A DNA stretch of 64,000 nucleotides from Trichormus sp. ATA11-4-KO1 (GCA_019358915.1 JAHHIM010000005.1:96001-160000); one strand, 5' to 3'; positions 1,375 through 62,981 are shown, counted from the stretch's first letter. Numbers and translations: made by a program. The notes: a model not told the origin generated them from the sequence alone.

Positions 1375-1878
1375 CTAAATCTGTAACGCCTTAAACCATT
1401 TATTGACAACTGTATTGATAGTTTTTTTAATTTGATGTTTGCGATACCATTTTTGAAAAGCCATTTCGTACTCTTCGCCTTTAGTTTGAAAGGTATTCCA
1501 AATATCAAGCCCTAGTGTCAGTCCACAAAATAGCAAGAAATACAACGACCAAGTAAGACCACCACCACCGACGAAATCCACCAGCAGGAAAAAACTGTTG
1601 ACAATTGCATAATTCCCCACACGTTTTTTAAATCTTCCGATTCGGTAGGAATTAAAAGCTTGCCGTTGTTGGATTTCACTTTGTTGCGATCGCCAGTCAA
1701 TTTCTGCGAGGTTGAGAGATTCTGGTGAAATTTCTAACTCAGTAGCAATTTCCAGCAGTTGCTCATAGGAAAATTCTTTGTCTTGGTCATTGGCTTGACG
1801 AGCGATCGCTAACTGAAGAATTTTCTGCACATCTTCTTGGCTATAAGAACAAAGACTCTGAGGTTCAAATGCCGTCAT
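1375..1878 (-). CDS. 2TM-domain membrane protein
   Basis: N-terminal YSQEDVQKILQLAIARQ/LLEIATELEI and two C-terminal hydrophobic segments, typical of the cyanobacterial 2TM family. Confidence 0.8.
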   Translation of the reverse strand: MTAFEPQSLCSYSQEDVQKILQLAIARQANDQDKEFSYEQLLEIATELEISPESLNLAEIDWRSQQSEIQQRQAFNSYRIGRFKKRVGNYAIVNSFFLLVDFVGGGGLTWSLYFLLFCGLTLGLDIWNTFQTKGEEYEMAFQKWYRKHQIKKTINTVVNKWFKALQI

Positions 1879-2095: not shown

Positions 2096-2992
2096 TCAAT
2101 CTGATCCAATGGTCACTTCACGAACAATTCCTAAAAAAGTGGACAAAATTGGATTGGTAGTATTGGGATACCAAGCAACAGCAAGCTCCAATTCTGGAGA
2201 TGGCTCTAATAAATTTCTGAAGACAACACCAGTAGGTGTTACAGCTTGTGCTGAGGCATGGAGCAGTGAAATCCCAATATCTGCTGAAACTAAACCGAGA
2301 ATGGTTTGCTGAGGAATAACCTCTTGTACAATATTCGGACTAAACCCTGCCTGCTGACACAAATTAATAATGCGATCATAAAGAACTGGACCAACATGAC
2401 GTGGAAAGAGAATAAACGATTCATCAGAAAGTGCCTTGATTGAAATTGACTCAGTTGCAGCCTGAGCCAATGGATGGGTATCTGATAAAACTGCAACTAA
2501 CCTTTCTCGATGAATGGTTTCTAAGACTAAAAACTCATTTTCTAAAGGTGGATGCAGTAACCCTACTTGAAGTTGACCCGATATCAGCGCTTCAACTTGC
2601 TCATTAGTATGGAGTTTTTCTAATGCAAGTTCTACCTGCGGATGTCGCTCTTTGAACAAGCGGACAATTTTAGGCAGAATGCTATTTAAAGCAGGACTTG
2701 TAAAGCCAACAGCAAACCTTCCAATCTCGCCTCGACTCGTGCGTTGTGCCAGTAGAACAGTATATTCAGCTTGTTGGAGTGTTTTTCTGGCCTCCGTTAA
2801 GAAGACTTGCCCTGCTTCTGTCAAGCGCACGGTGCGTTTCGTGCGATAGAACAGCTGCACGCCGATTTCATCTTCTAAATTACGAATTTGACGACTAAGC
2901 GGTTGTTGAGCAATATGCAATCGTTGTGCTGCTCGACCGAAATGTAGTTCTTCAGCCACAGCTACAAAGTAACGGAGATGTCGCAATTCCAT
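2096..2992 (-). CDS. LysR-family transcriptional regulator
   Basis: MELRHLRYFVAVAEELHFGRAAQRLHIAQQPLSRQIRNLE HTH, 298 aa, divergent from the hydrolase gene. Confidence 0.95.
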   Translation of the reverse strand: MELRHLRYFVAVAEELHFGRAAQRLHIAQQPLSRQIRNLEDEIGVQLFYRTKRTVRLTEAGQVFLTEARKTLQQAEYTVLLAQRTSRGEIGRFAVGFTSPALNSILPKIVRLFKERHPQVELALEKLHTNEQVEALISGQLQVGLLHPPLENEFLVLETIHRERLVAVLSDTHPLAQAATESISIKALSDESFILFPRHVGPVLYDRIINLCQQAGFSPNIVQEVIPQQTILGLVSADIGISLLHASAQAVTPTGVVFRNLLEPSPELELAVAWYPNTTNPILSTFLGIVREVTIGSD

Positions 2993-3206
2993 TTGAACTT
3001 TTCAAGTGTTATTCAGTAATCAAATATATGTTGGACATTGATAAAACTTCTTTCTAGCATAATAAGTATGTTGATTACCTGAAAAAAGCTAGATGCCGTA
3101 ACAGCGAGATAATAGCTATGAATTAGCTGTAATTGAACTTTAATAACCAATTTAATTTGACTGATAGAACTAGGCACAAATCCTGGGTTTATGGTGTTTT
3201 TAGTGC

Positions 3207-4955
3207 TTGAAAGGTGTTACTCCAGTGAAATGTTTAATGATTGCTAGTGTTCTACTTTTAGCTTCAGGTTGCGTTAAAGCCGACATGTGGAATTCCAAAG
3301 CAGTTCAACCTGCTGCGTCTCCAGCTACGGAGTCTCCTCAACTTCACACTAGCCAACTCGTTAATACACTCCGACAGGGCGGCTATGTAATTTACATTCG
3401 TCATACTGCAACAGATTGGTCTCAAGCCGATATCAGAGAAGGAGGAGAATGGTGGAAGAATTGTGAGGCTCATCGCAATCTATCTCCAGAGGGTCGAGTC
3501 CAAGCTCAAGTAATCGGTGATGCTCTACGTACTCTTGGCATTCCTATTGGTCAAGTAATTGCTAGTGAATATTGCCGAACTGTAGAAACAGCGCAATTAA
3601 TGAAGGTTGGTTCTGTTCAAACAACAAAACGTCTGAATGGGCGGCGTTCTTGGCAAAACTTAAACGGCAAATCAGGACAAGAACAGCTGGTTGCAGAAAC
3701 TCGAATATTGTTGGGTACTCCCCCTGCACCTGGTGTTAACAAGGTTTTGGTGTCTCATATACACAACTTTAAAGAACCAGCACATCCTGTATTGAGTGAA
3801 ATTGCAGAAGGAGAAGCAGCAATTTTTAAACCATCTGATGATGGAAGCTTTACGCTCATCGCTCGTGTCACTTCCACGAAGTGGGTTGAACTAACTCAAA
3901 ACTCAGTATCAACTGCGATCGCACAATCTCTTTTAAAACAGCAGTTTTCTCTAAATTCATCTCAAGTGACGCGAAAGGATTTTTATGTGACGAGTGATCC
4001 TGGTATTCAAATTTTTGTCCGGGAGGTTTTGTTGGGCGATCGCACCAAAAGTTCAAATCCCCCAATCTTGTTAATTCATGGGGGTGGCCCCGGCGGTATT
4101 GCTTCTTTTGACTTAAATGTGCCTGGATACTCACTTGCCGCAGATTTTGCTGCTGCTGGACATTCAGTTTACATCATAAATGTGCGGGGTTGGGAACGTT
4201 CTACGCGTCCTACAGCTTTAGATCAACCACCAGAAAAAAATCCGCCATCTGTCCCCTCAGACGCAGCAGTGCGAGATATTGAAGCCGTAGTCGATGCCAT
4301 TCGCGACCTTCATCAAGGACAACCTGTGGCACTTGTCGGTTGGGCAACTGGCGGACATTGGGCAGGGATGTATACGAGTCAAAACAATGAAAAAGTTAGC
4401 CACTTGGTAATGCTCAATAGCCTCTATGGTGTTGATGCGCCTTGGAAACTTCGTCATGCCTTTGAAGACCCAAATAAGCCAGGAACATTTGACTCTGATG
4501 CAGGAGCATACCGAATAACAGATGCTGAAGGGTTAATTGCTCAATGGAACCGAACAATTCCAGTTGAAGATAAGAGTCAGTGGCGTGACCCTGCTGTTGT
4601 TGATGCATATCAACATACAGCGCTTGCAAGAGGCGCCAACGGTAATACTAGTACTCCTTCTAGTCTGAGAATTCCATCTGCTTATCGATTGGAGAGTTAC
4701 AATCTCTCACTCGGTCAAAAGTATTGGGAGGCATCAGATATTACTGTTCCAACACTGGTTATTCGAGGTGAACTTGATTTTTGGTCTAGACAGGAAGATT
4801 TGCAAGCTCTCAAAGCAGAGTTAGTGAATGCATCCAGGGTTAAAACAGTGACTATTCCCAGTGGAACACATTATTTGTTCAATGACCGACCAGAGCGGGG
4901 GCGAGATTTTTTCATTCGACAGGTGTTATTGTTTCTGAGAAATAATGCTGGTTGA
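3207..4955 (+). CDS. Putative lipoprotein: histidine-phosphatase-like domain fused to an alpha/beta-hydrolase fold (start uncertain)
   Basis: Lipobox LASGC. N-domain has YIRH, RNLSPEG and SEYCRTVETA. C-domain has ILLIHGG, a GWATGG elbow, PTLVIRGELD and GTH. Confidence 0.75.
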   Translation: MKGVTPVKCLMIASVLLLASGCVKADMWNSKAVQPAASPATESPQLHTSQLVNTLRQGGYVIYIRHTATDWSQADIREGGEWWKNCEAHRNLSPEGRVQAQVIGDALRTLGIPIGQVIASEYCRTVETAQLMKVGSVQTTKRLNGRRSWQNLNGKSGQEQLVAETRILLGTPPAPGVNKVLVSHIHNFKEPAHPVLSEIAEGEAAIFKPSDDGSFTLIARVTSTKWVELTQNSVSTAIAQSLLKQQFSLNSSQVTRKDFYVTSDPGIQIFVREVLLGDRTKSSNPPILLIHGGGPGGIASFDLNVPGYSLAADFAAAGHSVYIINVRGWERSTRPTALDQPPEKNPPSVPSDAAVRDIEAVVDAIRDLHQGQPVALVGWATGGHWAGMYTSQNNEKVSHLVMLNSLYGVDAPWKLRHAFEDPNKPGTFDSDAGAYRITDAEGLIAQWNRTIPVEDKSQWRDPAVVDAYQHTALARGANGNTSTPSSLRIPSAYRLESYNLSLGQKYWEASDITVPTLVIRGELDFWSRQEDLQALKAELVNASRVKTVTIPSGTHYLFNDRPERGRDFFIRQVLLFLRNNAG

Positions 4956-56608: not shown

Positions 56609-57302
56609 ATGCAGACATTCGGCAGCATAACTCCATCATCGGGCTACATTTTAGCACTGGACTTGGGTACAACAGGTAATCGGGCTTTTGTATTTAACGC
56701 CGACGGCGAGATGATCGGGCAAGCATACAAAGAACTAACCCAGTATTATCCTCAACCGGGATGGTTGGAACATGACCCTGAAGAAATTTGGCGCGATACT
56801 TGCTGGGTGATGCAAACCGCCATTAAAAACGCTCAAATTAAACCATCAGCTATTGCGGCATTGGGACTGACTGTGCAGCGAGAAACCTGCTTAATTTGGG
56901 ATAAAACTACCGGCCAGTGTACAACCCCAGCATTTAGTCCGTGCGGTCTTAGAAGCGATCGCCTATCAAGTTTTAGAAGTAGTACAAGCAATCAACGCAT
57001 CTTCTAATATTCCCATGGGACGATTAACCGTAGACGGTGGCGCTTGCGAGAACAATTTTCTCATGCAATTCCAGGCAGACGTATTGGGAATTCCCGTAGA
57101 ACGCCCCATCATGCGCGACACTACCGTACAAGGTGCAGCCTTTGCGGCAGGTTTAGCTGTGGGATTTTGGGATGACCATACAGCATTAGTCAGCCAACGG
57201 CAAATTGACCGTATATTTGCACCTAGTCAAGGAAGACATCAAGCAGCAGCTAATTTTGCCACATGGCAACAGGCAGTTAAGCGGACTCTTGCTTGGGGAT
57301 AG
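56609..57302 (+). pseudogene. glpK: Glycerol kinase with large internal deletion and frameshift
   Basis: N-terminus (ALDLGTT..PGWLEHD..QRET..WDKTTG) joins out of frame near 56912 to VQPQHLVRAVLEAIAYQV..VDGGA..MQFQAD. Confidence 0.9.
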
Positions 57303-59352: not shown

Positions 59353-59740
59353 TTAGTAGCCAAAGTCCTCACCCATACCACCACCAGGTGTAGCCGCAGC
59401 CACATTAGTTGGCGTTTTCTAGTTTCAGGCCAGCTTCTTCGGTGATTAATTGCCCACCTGTGAGGCTAGCTATATCTTCCAACATTGCTTTGCGGCGATC
59501 GCCAAAACCTGGCGCTTTAACTGCTGCTACATTCAGCACACCGCGTAGGCGGTTAACTACTAAAGTTGCCAAAGCTTCTTTTTCAATATCTTCAGCAATA
59601 ATCAACTGTGGTTTGCCAAAACGAGCTACCTGTTCTAGGACTGAGACTAAATCTTGTACCAAAGTGATTTTCTTGTCGGTCAGCAGAATATAAGGCTCCT
59701 CTAGAATTACCTCCATTCGCTCTGGATCGGTAACGAATAT
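59353..59740 (-). pseudogene. groEL: groEL remnant (apical-domain segment plus out-of-frame C-terminal tail)
   Basis: [31 protein letters not shown], followed in another frame by NVAAATPGGGMGEDFGY*. Confidence 0.9.
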
Positions 59741-59871
59741 ACAGCCCAAAGTTTTAACCACTAGCCATCAACTTCTTGTACCACCACTAATGCTAGATTA
59801 AGACCAAGACTATTTTCAAGTGTTAGTGAAGTTCAGTATGACAAAGCCAAGCATTTGCAGAGATTTTATCC

Positions 59872-60060
59872 TTAACTGAAATTCACAAACCAAGCTTTGA
59901 CACAAAATCTACCGCTACCACGTTCATCGTTTTGAATGTTGACAAAAAGTTCTAACTTTGTGCGATAAACTAAATGTAATATCACAGACTTTATATAATC
60001 GCTGAAGTCCTGAATTTGATGATTTGTGTTTTTGTAGAAACAAAAAAAATTGTTATTCAT
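59872..60060 (-). CDS. Candidate PatS-like RGSGR-containing small protein (62 aa)
   Basis: Encodes LFVNIQNDERGSGR; ATG lies 9 nt after the stop of the upstream gene. Confidence 0.55.
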   Translation of the reverse strand: MNNNFFCFYKNTNHQIQDFSDYIKSVILHLVYRTKLELFVNIQNDERGSGRFCVKAWFVNFS

Positions 60061-60069
60061 CTGCTGAAT

Positions 60070-60381
60070 TTAAAAGTCTCGTTCTTTGGGTTTACCGGCT
60101 GAGGTAGTAAAGTCAAAAATTGAATTTTTCAAAGATATATATTCTTGAGAACTAATATGGCAATTTTTATATGATTCATCTAAAAAATGAATGAGCACCA
60201 AACTCGCAGACTCCAACTTTACCCTTTTCCTCGCTGCCCTTATAGCCTGAACGAACCTAGGATAAATATGATTATTACTAATTCCTATTTGCCCATCTGG
60301 CATCCAACACTTAAATACATAACCTTCAGACAATGGTGTTAATTCAATTAACCAGCCATGATATGCATCTTGCCATTTCAT
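60070..60381 (-). CDS. Hypothetical protein
   Basis: 103-aa ORF (YHGWLIEL..GYVFKCW..YPRFVQAIRAA) with GAGGAGG upstream. Confidence 0.75.
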   Translation of the reverse strand: MKWQDAYHGWLIELTPLSEGYVFKCWMPDGQIGISNNHIYPRFVQAIRAARKRVKLESASLVLIHFLDESYKNCHISSQEYISLKNSIFDFTTSAGKPKERDF

Positions 60382-60448
60382 CTACAATTTGCCTTTACTT
60401 TACCTCCTCATGTGTATACAAGAGGATATAACGTATACATGCAATCAC

Positions 60449-60478
60449 TGTGCAGAATTTGTGCAGAATTTGTGCAGA
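60449..60478. promoter_or_regulatory. Triple 11-bp direct repeat, candidate OmpR-family binding site
   Basis: TGTGCAGAATT TGTGCAGAATT TGTGCAGA, upstream of the 60381 gene. Confidence 0.6.
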
Positions 60479-60530: not shown

Positions 60531-61223
60531 TTATTTGAGGCGATAACCTAGTCCGTGAACCGTTTCAATGAAATTTTCTGGCGCACCTAAAGCTTTCAGT
60601 TTTTGCCTAAGACATCTAATATGAGACCTGACAGTCTCCTCAACTGGGGAGTCATCTACTGGCCAAACCTGCTCAATAATACTAGAACGACTCAAAACCC
60701 TTCTGCCATTAGCAACCAGTAATTCCAAAATGGCATATTCCTTGGGAGTTAATGACAGAGGATAACCATTATAAGTCGCCTCATAGGTACTGGGATTTAA
60801 GTGTAGTTTGTCCCAAGATAAACTGATTGTAGTTGCAGAACCACCCCGTCTGAGTAAAGCACGTATACGAGCCATTAACTCTTCTAGGTCAAATGGCTTG
60901 GCTACATAATCATCTGCGCCTGCATCTAACCCAGCAATCTTATCAGCCACAGTATCACGGGCTGTTAACATTAACACTGGTGCGCCAGAGTTCCGATGTG
61001 CGGGATTAATGGCGCCAGTATTACGCAAGCGTTGACAAAATCTAATCCCATCGAGTCTTGGTAGTGTCACATCTAACACCACTAAGTCATACTTCATTGA
61101 TTCGGCTGAGTTCCAAGCTGCTTCTCCATCTTTAGCAACATCTACTACATACTGGCGTCTGCTTAAAGCTTCCGTCAGTACCTCTGCTAGTTGACTATCA
61201 TCTTCTACTACAAGAATTCGCAT
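60531..61223 (-). CDS. OmpR-family response regulator
   Basis: ILVVEDD, LDVTLP, LTARD, GADDYVAKPF, LTPKE and ETVHGLGY motifs. Confidence 0.95.
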   Translation of the reverse strand: MRILVVEDDSQLAEVLTEALSRRQYVVDVAKDGEAAWNSAESMKYDLVVLDVTLPRLDGIRFCQRLRNTGAINPAHRNSGAPVLMLTARDTVADKIAGLDAGADDYVAKPFDLEELMARIRALLRRGGSATTISLSWDKLHLNPSTYEATYNGYPLSLTPKEYAILELLVANGRRVLSRSSIIEQVWPVDDSPVEETVRSHIRCLRQKLKALGAPENFIETVHGLGYRLK

Positions 61224-61616: not shown

Positions 61617-62981
61617 ATGAAATGGTCTCTCCGAGGAAAATGGATTATTGCCGGGTTTGGTTTAACTCTGTTACTGATGGGATTAGTTACCTTCGCTTCA
61701 TTTAAAAACACAACTGAAATTCAACAGGGTGCTAATAGGATACAACATACTTATCAAACCCTCAATACTTTGACAGATTTTTCTGCGGCGATGACGGCTG
61801 CGGAATCGGCACGGCGAGGATACATATTTTTGGGTAATAGACAAGATTTAAAGCGTCATCAAAATGAAGTTGCTAATATGCAGTCTGAACTCAGGCTGTT
61901 ACAGGAGCAGATACATTCTAGTTTGAGTCAGCAACAGCGATTCGCACGATTAGACTCATTGGTAAATCAAAGATTAGCTCTTTTGAGACAATCTATTGAA
62001 CTTTATCAAAAGGATGAAACAGCATTACAAACACAAAATAATATTACTGAAAGCAGCGTTAAACTTAGAGAAGAAATTTTGCCCATAATGGCAGATATTA
62101 AAGCTGAAGAACAAAGTTATTTGCAAAATTCTCTAGAGCAATCTGATAACAGTATTCGTTTGCGAATCTTGATAGAAATACTGGGAACAATTTTAAGTCT
62201 TATAGTGATTGCTAGTTTGTGTATCACACTGGATCGTCAATGGATAAAACGCGAGAAAATTGAATCGTTAGAAGTTTCTCTAGCCCAAGAAAAAGAATTT
62301 GGTGAACTCAAAATTCGCTTGTTTTCCATGATTTCTCACGAATTTCGTACACCTTTGAGCATTATTTTACTTTCTTCTCAGTTATTAAAAGAAATTTTGA
62401 AAGAACTGGTGGATGATCAGCAATTAAAAAATCTCTACCGAATTCAATCTTCAGCAAAATTAATGAATCATTTATTAACAGATATATTGACTTTAACTAG
62501 AGCAGAGGCAGGTAAGCTAGATTATAAACCTCAATTGATTAATGTAGAAAATTTTTGTCTAAATTTAGTAGAAGATTTACAACTTTTTGGCACGGCTCCC
62601 CATTTAATAAAATTCATGAATCATGGTCAATGTTTTCGTGCTCATCTAGATGAAAAATTGCTGTATTCTATTCTCAGCAATTTACTATTAAATGCTATTA
62701 AGTATTCATTTGCTGGAGGTAAGATATACTTAATTTTAAATTCGGAAGCAGAAGCTATAGTTTTTCAGGTAATAGATGAAGGAATCGGTATTCCACCAGC
62801 AGAACAAGAAAAAATTTATGAGCCTTTGTATCGGTGTCAAAATGTTGAAAACATTGTGGGGACTGGGTTGGGCTTGGCAGTGGTGAAGAAATGTGTAGAA
62901 CGTCATCATGGAGAGATTTCTGTGGAAAGTGCAGTAGGAGTTGGGACAACATTTACTGTCAAGATTCCTTCAATTAACTGA
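61617..62981 (+). CDS. CHASE3-domain sensor histidine kinase
   Basis: TM-CHASE3 (AESARRGY)-TM, then SHEFRTPL, NLLLNAIKYS, DEGIGI and GTGLGL motifs. Confidence 0.95.
   Translation: MKWSLRGKWIIAGFGLTLLLMGLVTFASFKNTTEIQQGANRIQHTYQTLNTLTDFSAAMTAAESARRGYIFLGNRQDLKRHQNEVANMQSELRLLQEQIHSSLSQQQRFARLDSLVNQRLALLRQSIELYQKDETALQTQNNITESSVKLREEILPIMADIKAEEQSYLQNSLEQSDNSIRLRILIEILGTILSLIVIASLCITLDRQWIKREKIESLEVSLAQEKEFGELKIRLFSMISHEFRTPLSIILLSSQLLKEILKELVDDQQLKNLYRIQSSAKLMNHLLTDILTLTRAEAGKLDYKPQLINVENFCLNLVEDLQLFGTAPHLIKFMNHGQCFRAHLDEKLLYSILSNLLLNAIKYSFAGGKIYLILNSEAEAIVFQVIDEGIGIPPAEQEKIYEPLYRCQNVENIVGTGLGLAVVKKCVERHHGEISVESAVGVGTTFTVKIPSIN

What the first reader, a model, noticed from the sequence alone, without database searches (positions are those of the whole stretch)
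59872..60060. Small ORF encoding the PatS heterocyst-inhibitor motif DERGSGR
Seen: the 62-codon minus-strand ORF contains ...LELFVNIQN-DERGSGR-FCVKAWFVNFS* (motif at 59908-59928) and starts 9 nt after the upstream stop, as in an operon. Known: PatS of Anabaena PCC 7120 is [17 protein letters not shown], and (E)RGSGR in PatS, HetN and PatX binds and inhibits HetR. The similarity goes beyond the core: hydrophobic-VN precedes the motif, and a second KAxxVNF echo of PatS follows it. Inference: an additional PatS-like morphogen precursor, or a decayed tandem patS repeat, in a context I do not recognise as the usual patS/patX/hetN loci. I saw no perfect DIF1 (TCCGGA) upstream, so control may differ from patS.
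Basis: partly seen in the sequence, partly recalled or inferred. Interest (0 to 1): 0.88.

Follow-up and report, generated by a model that had tools for sequence, protein, structure and literature searches.

The report
Fourth, unannotated RGSGR peptide gene family
This small unannotated gene carries the five-residue signal (RGSGR) that nitrogen-fixing filamentous cyanobacteria use to switch off their cell-differentiation regulator HetR, and it sits at a conserved spot separate from the known inhibitor genes, apparently under a different control.

Summary
In detail: window 59872-60060 (-) is a 62-codon ORF with DERGSGR at 59908-59928, starting 9 nt after a 103-aa gene.

It is not chance. The same genome holds a canonical patS beside the tsaE/hetY-like gene (contig C31) and a PatX-type ORF (C28), so this is an extra RGSGR gene.

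In relatives the layout is CHASE3 kinase / OmpR regulator / 103-aa geneA / (DUF1830 geneB) / small RGSGR ORF. RGSGR lies at that place in 27 of 29 loci of the window's family, and in 0 of 8 loci from other filamentous cyanobacteria. Among 28 sequences the five residues are identical, every codon varies synonymously, and the flanks diverge.

In the window's lineage about 190 nt of geneB are deleted. Its start codon now reads in frame into the RGSGR peptide: 15 of 15 such ORFs are open, against 55 and 77 stops in the other two frames.

No DIF1 motif is conserved upstream. Instead a triple 11-bp direct repeat, unique in this genome, precedes geneA in 33 of 38 loci.

Best reading: a PatS-like HetR-inhibitor precursor driven by the neighbouring two-component system. 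Function is untested. The key 2018 PatX survey could not be read.

The parts
59872..60060 (-). 62-codon chimeric ORF: DUF1830-gene start + linker + PatS-like ...ELFVNIQNDERGSGR + 11-residue tail (stop TAA 59872-59874)
   Evidence: ORF; syntenic ORFs in relatives; 15 of 15 such ORFs open from the DUF1830-derived ATG; 0 stops in frame against 55 and 77 in the other frames; no predicted protein like it in the protein collection
59908..59922 (-). RGSGR codons (CGT GGT AGC GGT AGA); the D-E codons lie at 59923-59928
   Evidence: RGSGR in 28 of 28 syntenic sequences, with synonymous variation at every codon (R CGC19/CGT9; G GGT14/GGC14; S AGT16 AGC5 TCT4 TCC2 TCA1; G GGT18 GGC7 GGG2 GGA1; R AGA17 AGG11)
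60010..60060 (-). remnant of the DUF1830 gene (geneB): its start region and first 17 codons (MNNNFFCFYKNTNHQIQ); about 190 nt of geneB are deleted after it
   Evidence: tblastn of the intact 78-aa geneB: residues 1-17, 65% identity; DNA alignment A2: columns 80-274 absent from the window and three relatives; intact geneB matches PF08865 DUF1830, E 2e-18
60070..60381 (-). geneA, a conserved 103-aa protein of unknown family, immediately upstream and apparently in one operon
   Evidence: conserved, 28-94% identity; no Pfam or NCBIfam family; AF2 pLDDT 91: three strands + two long helices; no convincing structural match
60426..60477 (-). promoter-like element: three 11-bp direct repeats CTGCACAAATT (60477-60449), then GTGATTGCATGTATACGTTATAT; candidate binding site of the adjacent OmpR-type regulator
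   Evidence: seen by eye across loci; 33 of 38 loci within 400 nt upstream of geneA at <=7 of 29 substitutions; 3 matches elsewhere in the loci; only instance in the whole genome
60531..61223 (-). OmpR-type response regulator (receiver + winged-helix), best NCBIfam match RppA, below its cut-off
   Evidence: PF00072 5.6e-30, PF00486 2.3e-23; NF041734 216.9 bits, cut-off 250; kept upstream of geneA in L002-L008
61617..62981 (+). divergent CHASE3 sensor histidine kinase
   Evidence: CHASE3 4.8e-16, HisKA 3e-14, HATPase_c 5.2e-28; kept divergent from the regulator in relatives

Best explanation
The ORF is a real, translated small gene. It belongs to a previously unlisted family of PatS-like RGSGR peptide genes found in part of the heterocyst-forming cyanobacteria.

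Ancestral layout: CHASE3 kinase <-> OmpR regulator -> geneA (103 aa) -> geneB (DUF1830) -> mini-ORF of about 17-25 codons, M..(K/E)LFVNIK.D.RGSGR(F/Y).. In the window's lineage a deletion of about 190 nt removed most of geneB and joined its start codon in frame to the mini-ORF. This gives the 62-codon ORF.

Proposed mechanism (inferred): the phosphorylated neighbouring regulator binds the 11-bp direct repeats before geneA and drives one geneA-to-RGSGR transcript. The precursor is translated in the cytoplasm; it has no signal peptide. It is trimmed to an RGSGR-containing peptide that binds the hood domain of HetR and blocks its DNA binding, lowering heterocyst commitment. The inhibitor is therefore switched on by whatever the CHASE3 kinase senses, not by the DIF1/HetZ developmental circuit that drives patS and patX.

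Shown here: existence, synteny, selection on RGSGR, open frames, the conserved repeats, and coexistence with patS and a PatX-type ORF. Inferred: transcription unit, regulator binding, processing, HetR binding and phenotype.
For: (1) Own genome. Canonical patS (MKTTIFVNFLDERGSGR*) lies on C31 beside a tsaE/hetY-like ORF. A PatX-type ORF (hydrophobic N-terminus, Pro-rich, ends DERGSGR*) lies on C28. hetR is on C16.

(2) Synteny and motif. RGSGR sits on the geneA strand, 390-706 nt after the geneA start, in 27 of 29 loci of the window's family, and nowhere else in those ~6.3-kb loci on either strand. A second, overlapping sample gives 29 of 30 loci, 14 of 15 genera.

(3) Codons. RGSGR is present in 28 of 28 sequences with synonymous changes at all five codons, including the AGY/TCN serine switch, while the flanks diverge.

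(4) Open frames. All 15 distinct ORFs of the window's type are open from the DUF1830-derived ATG to RGSGR. The other two frames hold 55 and 77 stops. Length differences are in-frame.

(5) The flank resembles PatS: (L/I)FVN(I/F) + 3-4 residues + RGSGR. The DNA is 21 of 22 identical to the genome's own patS over DERGSGR.

(6) Canonical patS coexists beside the tsaE homolog in 6 of 9 relatives that carry the locus.

(7) The triple 11-bp repeat is found upstream of geneA in 33 of 38 loci and is unique in this genome. No minus-strand terminator-like site lies between the genes.

(8) At the syntenic place there is no RGSGR in 8 of 8 loci from named non-Nostocales filamentous taxa, 4 of which have an intact geneB.

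(9) RNA-library contigs of three studies run from geneA-B across the RGSGR codons in the Fischerella thermalis locus. One variant keeps RGSGR through two synonymous changes.

(10) Complex prediction, HetR hood x2 + ORF residues 28-62: weak support. Score 0.52, best control 0.05. The mark was reached by 51 of 78 solved complexes and 2 of 108 mismatches. At 0.60 or under it was reached by only 5 of those 78 solved complexes and by all 4 mismatches that passed (of 180, the harder ones counted). The three runs agree in at least 80% of contacts; partner pLDDT is at least 48. A HetR hood-PatS complex is solved (recalled), so the pass may be from memory.
Against: No experiment shows the peptide is made or acts on HetR.

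The residue before RGSGR is mostly D (15), G (6) or S (3), and E only in the window and its genus. PatS has ERGSGR.

RGSGR is internal here, with an 11-residue tail, so processing on both sides would be needed.

The window ORF has lost the mini-ORF's own ATG.

The family does not reach the NCBIfam PatS model: 14.6 bits against a cut-off of 30 for the window ORF, and no hit for four other members.

The RNA evidence is unstranded contigs. A convergent gene ends 8 nt after the Fischerella ORF, so antisense read-through cannot be excluded.

Two loci of the window's family lack the motif: PCC 7702 has none, and Cylindrospermum NIES-4074 reads RASGR.

The relatives are kin, so the counts overstate independence.

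geneA is present in only 47 of 389 genomes of the family and was not found in the model strains, so nothing can be borrowed from their genetics.
Confidence: 0.62

Rival explanations
1. The family is simply patS under another address. These ORFs were already catalogued as PatS in the 2018 survey by Elhai and Khudyakov or elsewhere, so nothing new is present.
For: The flank is PatS-like (FVN...RGSGR) and several members are 17-25 codons long. The 2018 paper could not be read, and its abstract (recalled) says a subset of heterocyst formers carry PatS-like proteins.
Against: A canonical tsaE/hetY-linked patS coexists in this genome and in 6 of 9 carriers. The NCBIfam PatS model does not reach its cut-off for these ORFs. 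No predicted protein resembles the ORF in the protein collection. Papers read in passages up to July 2026 name only PatS, PatX and HetN as RG(S/T)GR sources. Searches for 'RGSGR' found no paper on a fourth family.
Confidence: 0.15
2. The RGSGR peptide is real and conserved but acts on something other than HetR. It could be a partner of geneA or the DUF1830 protein, or part of PII-linked nitrogen/carbon control.
For: It is always linked to geneA and originally to a DUF1830 gene. DUF1830 is the domain of the PII interactor PirC/CfrA and of PirN (passages read). The residue before RGSGR differs from PatS and PatX.
Against: The only known role of RGSGR in cyanobacteria is HetR inhibition. The motif persists after geneB was deleted. 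It is absent from geneA-geneB loci of non-heterocystous taxa. The docking test gave weak support for the HetR hood.
Confidence: 0.13
3. In this particular genome the ORF is a dead relic. The deletion that destroyed the DUF1830 gene also removed the mini-ORF's own start, and the 62-codon frame is an untranslated leftover. Only the short forms in other genera are functional.
For: The position of the mini-ORF's ATG reads ACA in the window. There are signs of gene decay nearby: a GroEL fragment at 59405-59761. No RNA data exist for this organism.
Against: All 15 distinct ORFs of this type, from several genera, stay open from the DUF1830-derived ATG to RGSGR in AT-rich DNA where the other frames carry 2-9 stops each. 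RGSGR is kept in all of them. The translation-start region of geneB is among the best-conserved stretches of the alignment.
Confidence: 0.08
4. The motif is a chance match, or is conserved for a DNA/RNA reason such as a structured RNA, a terminator or a HIP1-type repeat, and not as a peptide.
For: In many loci the D-R codons GAT CGC form part of GCGATCGC, the HIP1 palindrome common in cyanobacteria (the HIP1 name is recalled).
Against: Third-position and serine-box variation with an unchanged peptide. No Rfam family and no terminator-like site. The background is 1 RGSGR outside the syntenic place in all 37 loci, against 27 at it. The window itself has GAT GAA CGT, with no HIP1.
Confidence: 0.02

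Closest known systems
PatS (asl2301 of Anabaena/Nostoc PCC 7120; NCBIfam NF047415)
   Same: A small cytoplasmic-type peptide with no signal sequence. A hydrophobic (L/I)FVN stretch lies a few residues before RGSGR. In several genera the ORF is 17-25 codons. The window and its genus even share DERGSGR, and the DNA is 21 of 22 identical to the genome's own patS over that stretch.
   Different: A different locus: downstream of geneA/DUF1830 and a two-component system, not beside tsaE/hetY. It coexists with canonical patS. One extra residue lies between FVN and RGSGR. The preceding residue is mostly D/G/S. RGSGR is usually followed by F/Y and a tail (7 of 28 end at RGSGR). There is no conserved DIF1 motif. 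It scores below the NCBIfam cut-off. In the window's lineage the N-terminus is borrowed from a DUF1830 gene.
PatX (asl2332; 'alternative PatS' of Antonaru and Nurnberg 2017; NCBIfam NF047413)
   Same: A longer precursor (42-62 aa here) with RGSGR near the C-terminus, needing processing. It is an additional RGSGR source alongside PatS.
   Different: PatX has a hydrophobic, exported N-terminus and a proline-rich stretch before (H/Y)RG(S/T)GR, is cut by PatP, and has DIF1 within 69 nt upstream (PMC12756182 and PMC5812504, passages; the 69-nt figure is recalled from the 2018 abstract). The window ORF has none of these. The genome's PatX-type ORF is on C28.
HetN (alr5358)
   Same: RGSGR is internal to a longer product.
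   Different: HetN is a ~287-aa short-chain dehydrogenase-like protein (recalled). The window ORF has 62 aa and no Pfam domain. No RGSGR lies in a long ORF of this genome.
DUF1830 proteins (PF08865; PirC/CfrA Sll0944, PirN)
   Same: The first 17 codons and the start region of the window ORF descend from a DUF1830 gene. That gene is intact at this position in other genera and fused to geneA in Fischerella-type genomes.
   Different: Only the remnant is left here and the domain itself is deleted. The 62-aa ORF does not match PF08865.

Membership tests
PatS (classical; NCBIfam NF047415) | RGSGR pentapeptide | tested here: met
   RGSGR in the window ORF and in 28 of 28 syntenic sequences
PatS (classical; NCBIfam NF047415) | 13-17-codon ORF ending ...ERGSGR-stop | tested here: not met
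   62 codons, with RGSGR followed by 11 residues. Across the family 7 of 28 end at RGSGR, and the preceding residue is E in 2 of 28
PatS (classical; NCBIfam NF047415) | score at or above the curated cut-off of the NCBIfam model (30 bits) | tested here: not met
   window ORF 14.6 bits, motif positions 7-13 only. Four other members have no hit at E<=10. The genome's own patS ORF, read from an upstream in-frame ATG, scores 26.7 bits
PatS (classical; NCBIfam NF047415) | locus beside hetY (tsaE-like gene) | tested here: not met
   the genome's tsaE-linked patS is on C31.: the same holds in 6 of 9 relatives. The window ORF lies after geneA and a two-component system
PatS / PatX | DIF1 (TCCGGA) promoter motif upstream | tested here: not met
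   no TCCGGA in the window locus and none at a conserved upstream position in 38 loci. The own patS and PatX-type promoters were not scanned as a positive control beyond the 400 nt printed
PatS / PatX / HetN | binds HetR and suppresses heterocyst differentiation when overexpressed | not testable with these tools
   one search gives only a weak computational pass (0.52 against best control 0.05), possibly from memory of a solved HetR hood-PatS complex
PatX (NCBIfam NF047413) | hydrophobic, exported N-terminus and proline-rich stretch before RG(S/T)GR | tested here: not met
   the N-terminus MNNNFFCFYKNTNHQIQDFSDY is polar, and the ORF has no prolines.: no PatX-model hit at E<=10. No signal-peptide predictor was available, so this was judged by reading
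HetN | short-chain dehydrogenase fold of ~287 aa with internal RGSGR | tested here: not met
   no Pfam family for the 62-aa ORF
DUF1830 (PF08865) | 66-position DUF1830 domain | tested here: not met
   no hit for the window ORF.: only residues 1-17 align to the intact geneB.: about 190 nt deleted

The most novel reading that the evidence does not exclude
A fourth class of HetR-inhibiting RGSGR morphogen gene exists in about a third of the genera in the window's family. It is wired not to the HetR/HetZ/DIF1 developmental loop but to a dedicated CHASE3 kinase / OmpR regulator pair, through a unique triple-repeat promoter. It would let an external or envelope signal veto heterocyst formation. It arose beside a DUF1830 (PirC/PirN-type, PII-linked) gene. 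In one lineage it captured that gene's start codon after a deletion, which is the birth of a chimeric precursor. In Fischerella/Mastigocladus strains reported to lack PatS and an RGSGR-bearing HetN, it could be a main cytoplasmic source of the inhibitor.
Probability: 0.4. Interest if true: 0.82.

Novelty: new variant of a known kind. Interest (0 to 1): 0.7.

Why it matters
Heterocyst patterning is the textbook bacterial activator-inhibitor system, and its inhibitor list (PatS, PatX, HetN) is treated as complete in papers up to 2026.

A conserved, unannotated fourth RGSGR gene under a different promoter would add an input to that circuit. It would give a concrete handle on how the environment tunes heterocyst frequency: one kinase, one regulator and one promoter to test.

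It could also explain patterning in strains said to lack PatS and a functional HetN motif (PMC9284123, passages). And it shows how a signalling peptide can survive by capturing the start of a neighbouring gene that decayed.

Tried and rejected
- **Decayed tandem patS repeat.** Rejected: the KAWFVNF tail is genus-specific, and the ORF's N-terminus derives from DUF1830.
- **DIF1 control.** No conserved TCCGGA. NtcA-type GTA-N8-TAC occurs upstream of geneA in only 3 of 38 loci, at about -140, so it was not pursued.
- **Similarity of the locus to the own patS and PatX-type loci beyond the motif.** Only the 22-nt DERGSGR stretch matches patS; nothing matches the PatX-type locus.
- **Protein homologues of the 62-aa ORF.** None found. 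Only 34-109 aa were searched, and three shared 5-mers were needed.
- **Rfam and terminator scans.** Nothing relevant.
- **Function of geneA.** No Pfam or NCBIfam family. The AF2 model is good (pLDDT 91), but Foldseek finds no match at E<=0.001 and VIA-align's best Z is 6.9, within its stated noise.
- **Triple repeat elsewhere.** None in the genome, and none at the orphan copy L010.
- **RNA.** In run X1 no contig covers L034 3554-3651, so that run does not bridge geneB and the motif. The regulator gene lies on separate, shallower contigs, with 2817-2990 uncovered in all four runs. These are contigs only, so uncovered stretches prove nothing.
- **Elhai and Khudyakov 2018.** Not held.
- **Earlier notes of this scan.** Only phage-borne RGSGR cases on other DNA, and nothing on this locus or its relatives.

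Full report
**The observation.** Window 59872..60060 (-) is a 62-codon ATG ORF, MNNNFFCFYKNTNHQIQDFSDYIKSVILHLVYRTKLELFVNIQNDERGSGRFCVKAWFVNFS*. DERGSGR is encoded at 59928..59908. The ORF starts 9 nt after the stop of a 103-aa ORF at 60070..60381. Further upstream on the same strand lies an OmpR-type response regulator (60531..61223). A CHASE3 histidine kinase (61617..62981) is divergent from it.

**Is it chance?** I laid the whole genome (5.97 Mb, 73 contigs) and scanned all six frames.
- There are 21 RG[ST]GR, of which 15 are RGSGR. Only three are DERGSGR.
- One is the canonical patS, MKTTIFVNFLDERGSGR*, on contig C31, next to a tsaE/hetY-like ORF.
- One is a 74-aa ORF on C28 with a hydrophobic N-terminus, a proline-rich stretch and a C-terminal DERGSGR*. 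That is the PatX type.
- The third is the window ORF.
- hetR is on C16.

So the window ORF is an extra RGSGR ORF, not the genome's patS or patX. Over DERGSGR its DNA is 21 of 22 identical to the genome's patS. Nothing else in the two loci is alike.

**Synteny.** A DNA search of 40 relatives found the geneA region in 9, all of the same family. In 9 of the 10 loci fetched, a small ORF with RGSGR was present. Eight lay just downstream of the geneA homolog and one (L010) was a non-syntenic copy.

A scan of one genome per species with the geneA alignment gave 37 named loci.
- Of the 29 loci that belong to the window's family, 27 have exactly one RGSGR. These are named Nostoc, Nodularia, Anabaena, Cylindrospermum, Fischerella, Chlorogloeopsis, Umezakia, Dolichospermum and others. 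That these genera form heterocysts is recalled, not tested.
- That RGSGR is always on the geneA strand, 390-706 nt after the geneA start. There is none anywhere else in ~6.3 kb on either strand.
- The two misses are PCC 7702, which has nothing, and Cylindrospermum NIES-4074, whose mini-ORF reads MNSKTEERASGRFTLIS*.
- None of the 8 loci from other filamentous cyanobacteria has RGSGR at that place, although 4 of them keep geneA and an intact geneB. These are Coleofasciculus, Allocoleopsis x2, Potamolinea, Planktothrix and three others. One has a start-less PFRGSGR* at +905.

A family-wide search found geneA in 47 of 389 genomes, or 20 of 68 genera. Of the 30 loci fetched there, which overlap the first set and include the window, 29 carry the RGSGR ORF, in 14 of 15 genera.

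**Selection acts on the peptide.** Across the window and 27 relatives, RGSGR is identical in 28 of 28, while every codon varies synonymously:

| Residue | Codons observed |
|---|---|
| R | CGC 19, CGT 9 |
| G | GGT 14, GGC 14 |
| S | AGT 16, AGC 5, TCT 4, TCC 2, TCA 1 |
| G | GGT 18, GGC 7, GGG 2, GGA 1 |
| R | AGA 17, AGG 11 |

- The serine switch between AGY and TCN needs two base changes.
- The flanks diverge freely. The residue before the motif is D 15, G 6, S 3, E 2, A 1, N 1. The residue after it is F 8, stop 7, Y 3 and others.
- A weaker upstream pattern, (K/E)LFVNIK.D., recalls PatS (LVNF.DE), with one extra residue between FVN and RGSGR.
- No Rfam family, no terminator-like site and no ORF on the opposite strand explain the conservation.

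**Anatomy and origin of the window ORF.**
- In Fischerella-type genomes geneA continues into an 80-residue C-terminal domain.
- In Nostoc minutum, Dendronalium, Cylindrospermum FACHB-282, Amazonocrinis and Nostoc NIES-4103 the same domain is a separate 78-aa geneB.
- It is DUF1830, PF08865 (E 2e-18; 5e-28 in the fused form). This is the domain of the PII interactor PirC/CfrA (Sll0944) and of PirN (PMC6603209 and PMC13205821, passages read).
- In those genomes the RGSGR mini-ORF follows geneB and is 17-25 codons long, for example MHSELFVNIKNDSRGSGRFYSV* and MNMKLSGNIKTNDRGSGRFEKI*.
- In the window, its sister genome, Nodularia, Anabaena CCY strains, Umezakia and Atlanticothrix, only the first ~17 codons of geneB remain (MNNNFFCFYKNTNHQIQ).
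- The DNA alignment shows a gap of about 190 nt that joins them to the sequence just upstream of the mini-ORF. The mini-ORF's own ATG position reads ACA in the window.
- The result is a chimeric ORF read from geneB's ATG. All 15 distinct sequences of this type are open from that ATG to RGSGR (28-51 codons), while the other two frames hold 55 and 77 stops. Length differences are in-frame.
- Every locus with the remnant has this open frame.
- The start region of geneB is, with RGSGR, the best-conserved part of the alignment.

**Regulation.** No DIF1 hexamer (TCCGGA) is conserved upstream. Instead, 70-290 nt before geneA there are three 11-bp direct repeats, CTGCACAAATT x3. They are followed by (G)ATTGCAT.TATAGGTTATAT.
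- They occur in 33 of 38 loci at <=7 of 29 substitutions. These include Coleofasciculus, Allocoleopsis, Potamolinea and Planktothrix. There are 3 matches elsewhere in the loci.
- In the window's genome the element is unique.
- Direct repeats with an 11-bp period are the usual site type of OmpR/PhoB-family regulators (established knowledge).
- The neighbouring regulator is therefore the obvious candidate. This is inference.

**Expression.** For the Fischerella thermalis PCC 7521 locus, 13 RNA-library rows of 5 studies hold the stretch.
- Laid contigs of three studies run from geneA-B across the RGSGR codons: X2 2991-4000, X3 3102-4000, X10 3408-3889.
- The regulator gene sits on separate, shallower contigs.
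- The X10 organism keeps RGSGR through two synonymous changes.
- These are unstranded contigs, and a convergent gene ends 8 nt after the ORF. The result shows presence in RNA libraries only.

**HetR.** A docking test used the genome's own HetR hood domain (residues 216-299, two copies) with ORF residues 28-62. It gave 'weak support'.
- Score 0.52, best of 3 controls 0.05.
- The mark was reached by 51 of 78 solved complexes and 2 of 108 mismatches. At 0.60 or under it was reached by only 5 of those 78 solved complexes and by all 4 mismatches that passed (of 180, the harder ones counted).
- The three runs agree in at least 80% of contacts. Partner pLDDT is at least 48.
- A HetR hood-PatS complex has been solved (recalled), so the pass may reflect memory.

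**Comparison with what is known.**
- The ORF shares RGSGR and a PatS-like hydrophobic lead with PatS. It fails PatS membership on length, C-terminal position, locus, DIF1 and the NCBIfam model. The window ORF scores 14.6 bits against a cut-off of 30, four other members give no hit, and the own patS ORF scores 26.7.
- It lacks PatX's exported hydrophobic N-terminus and proline-rich region, and HetN's dehydrogenase body.
- Canonical tsaE-linked patS coexists in 6 of 9 carriers examined.
- No predicted protein resembling the ORF exists in the protein collection.
- Papers seen in passages name only PatS, PatX and HetN: PMC7761841, PMC5812504, PMC12756182, PMC13342950 of July 2026. Four searches on RGSGR found no fourth family.
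- Elhai and Khudyakov 2018, the main survey, is not held. It may list some of these ORFs.
- PMC9284123 (passages) reports that some Mastigocladus/Fischerella strains lack PatS and an RGSGR-bearing HetN. Whether those strains carry this ORF was not tested.

**Verdict.** The ORF belongs to a conserved, unannotated family of PatS-like RGSGR genes with its own locus and apparently its own control. In this lineage it was rebuilt on the start of a deleted DUF1830 gene. That it inhibits HetR and is driven by the adjacent two-component system is the best-supported mechanism, but it is inferred.

Noticed in passing
G000:C55:93080-93223 (L013 6081..6224, +), outside the window: A 47-aa ORF ending ...AAEKDSRGSGR* sits among ORFs that look phage-like by reading (possible prophage). 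It is a further RGSGR-terminated ORF in this genome, in line with phage-borne RGSGR cases noted earlier in this scan on other DNA.
   Followed up: partly
window 59405-59761 (-): A 118-aa ORF is a fragment of a GroEL/Cpn60 chaperonin (PF00118, E 2.4e-4, profile 239-304 of 490). It is probably a gene remnant just downstream of the RGSGR ORF.
   Followed up: no
window 56609-57007 and 57015-57302 (+): Two adjacent short ORFs read like the N- and C-terminal pieces of a sugar (glycerol-type) kinase with the middle missing. This is judged by eye only and was not run against any library.
   Followed up: no
L028 (Cylindrospermum sp. NIES-4074), about 3440-3500: The syntenic mini-ORF is present but reads MNSKTEERASGRFTLIS*. 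That is RASGR instead of RGSGR, a natural single-residue variant of the motif.
   Followed up: partly
L010 (G003:C6:725202-728249), ORF 1435..1644 (+): An orphan copy, ...VSIKNDERGSGRFNFK..., is 83% identical in DNA to the window over 48 nt. Its genome has no geneA, and the copy has no triple repeat upstream. It lies between an ABC-ATPase gene and a kinase gene.
   Followed up: partly
L032-L037, L041 (Fischerella/Pelatocladus/Chlorogloeopsis loci), motif region: The codons before and in the motif read GGC GAT CGC GG. They contain GCGATCGC, the HIP1 palindrome of cyanobacteria (name recalled). This may bias the residue before RGSGR towards D.
   Followed up: no
G000:C28 (L011 6040..6264, -): The genome's PatX-type ORF (hydrophobic N-terminus, Pro-rich, C-terminal DERGSGR*) gives no hit to the NCBIfam PatX model at E<=10. 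It hits only the PatS model weakly (13.6 bits), so automatic annotation would probably miss it.
   Followed up: partly
L048 (Coleofasciculaceae MAG), 2358: A start-less 7-codon stop-to-stop frame, PFRGSGR*, lies 905 nt after a distant geneA homolog. It is probably chance: about 0.6 RGSGR are expected in all the loci scanned, at the genome's background rate.
   Followed up: no
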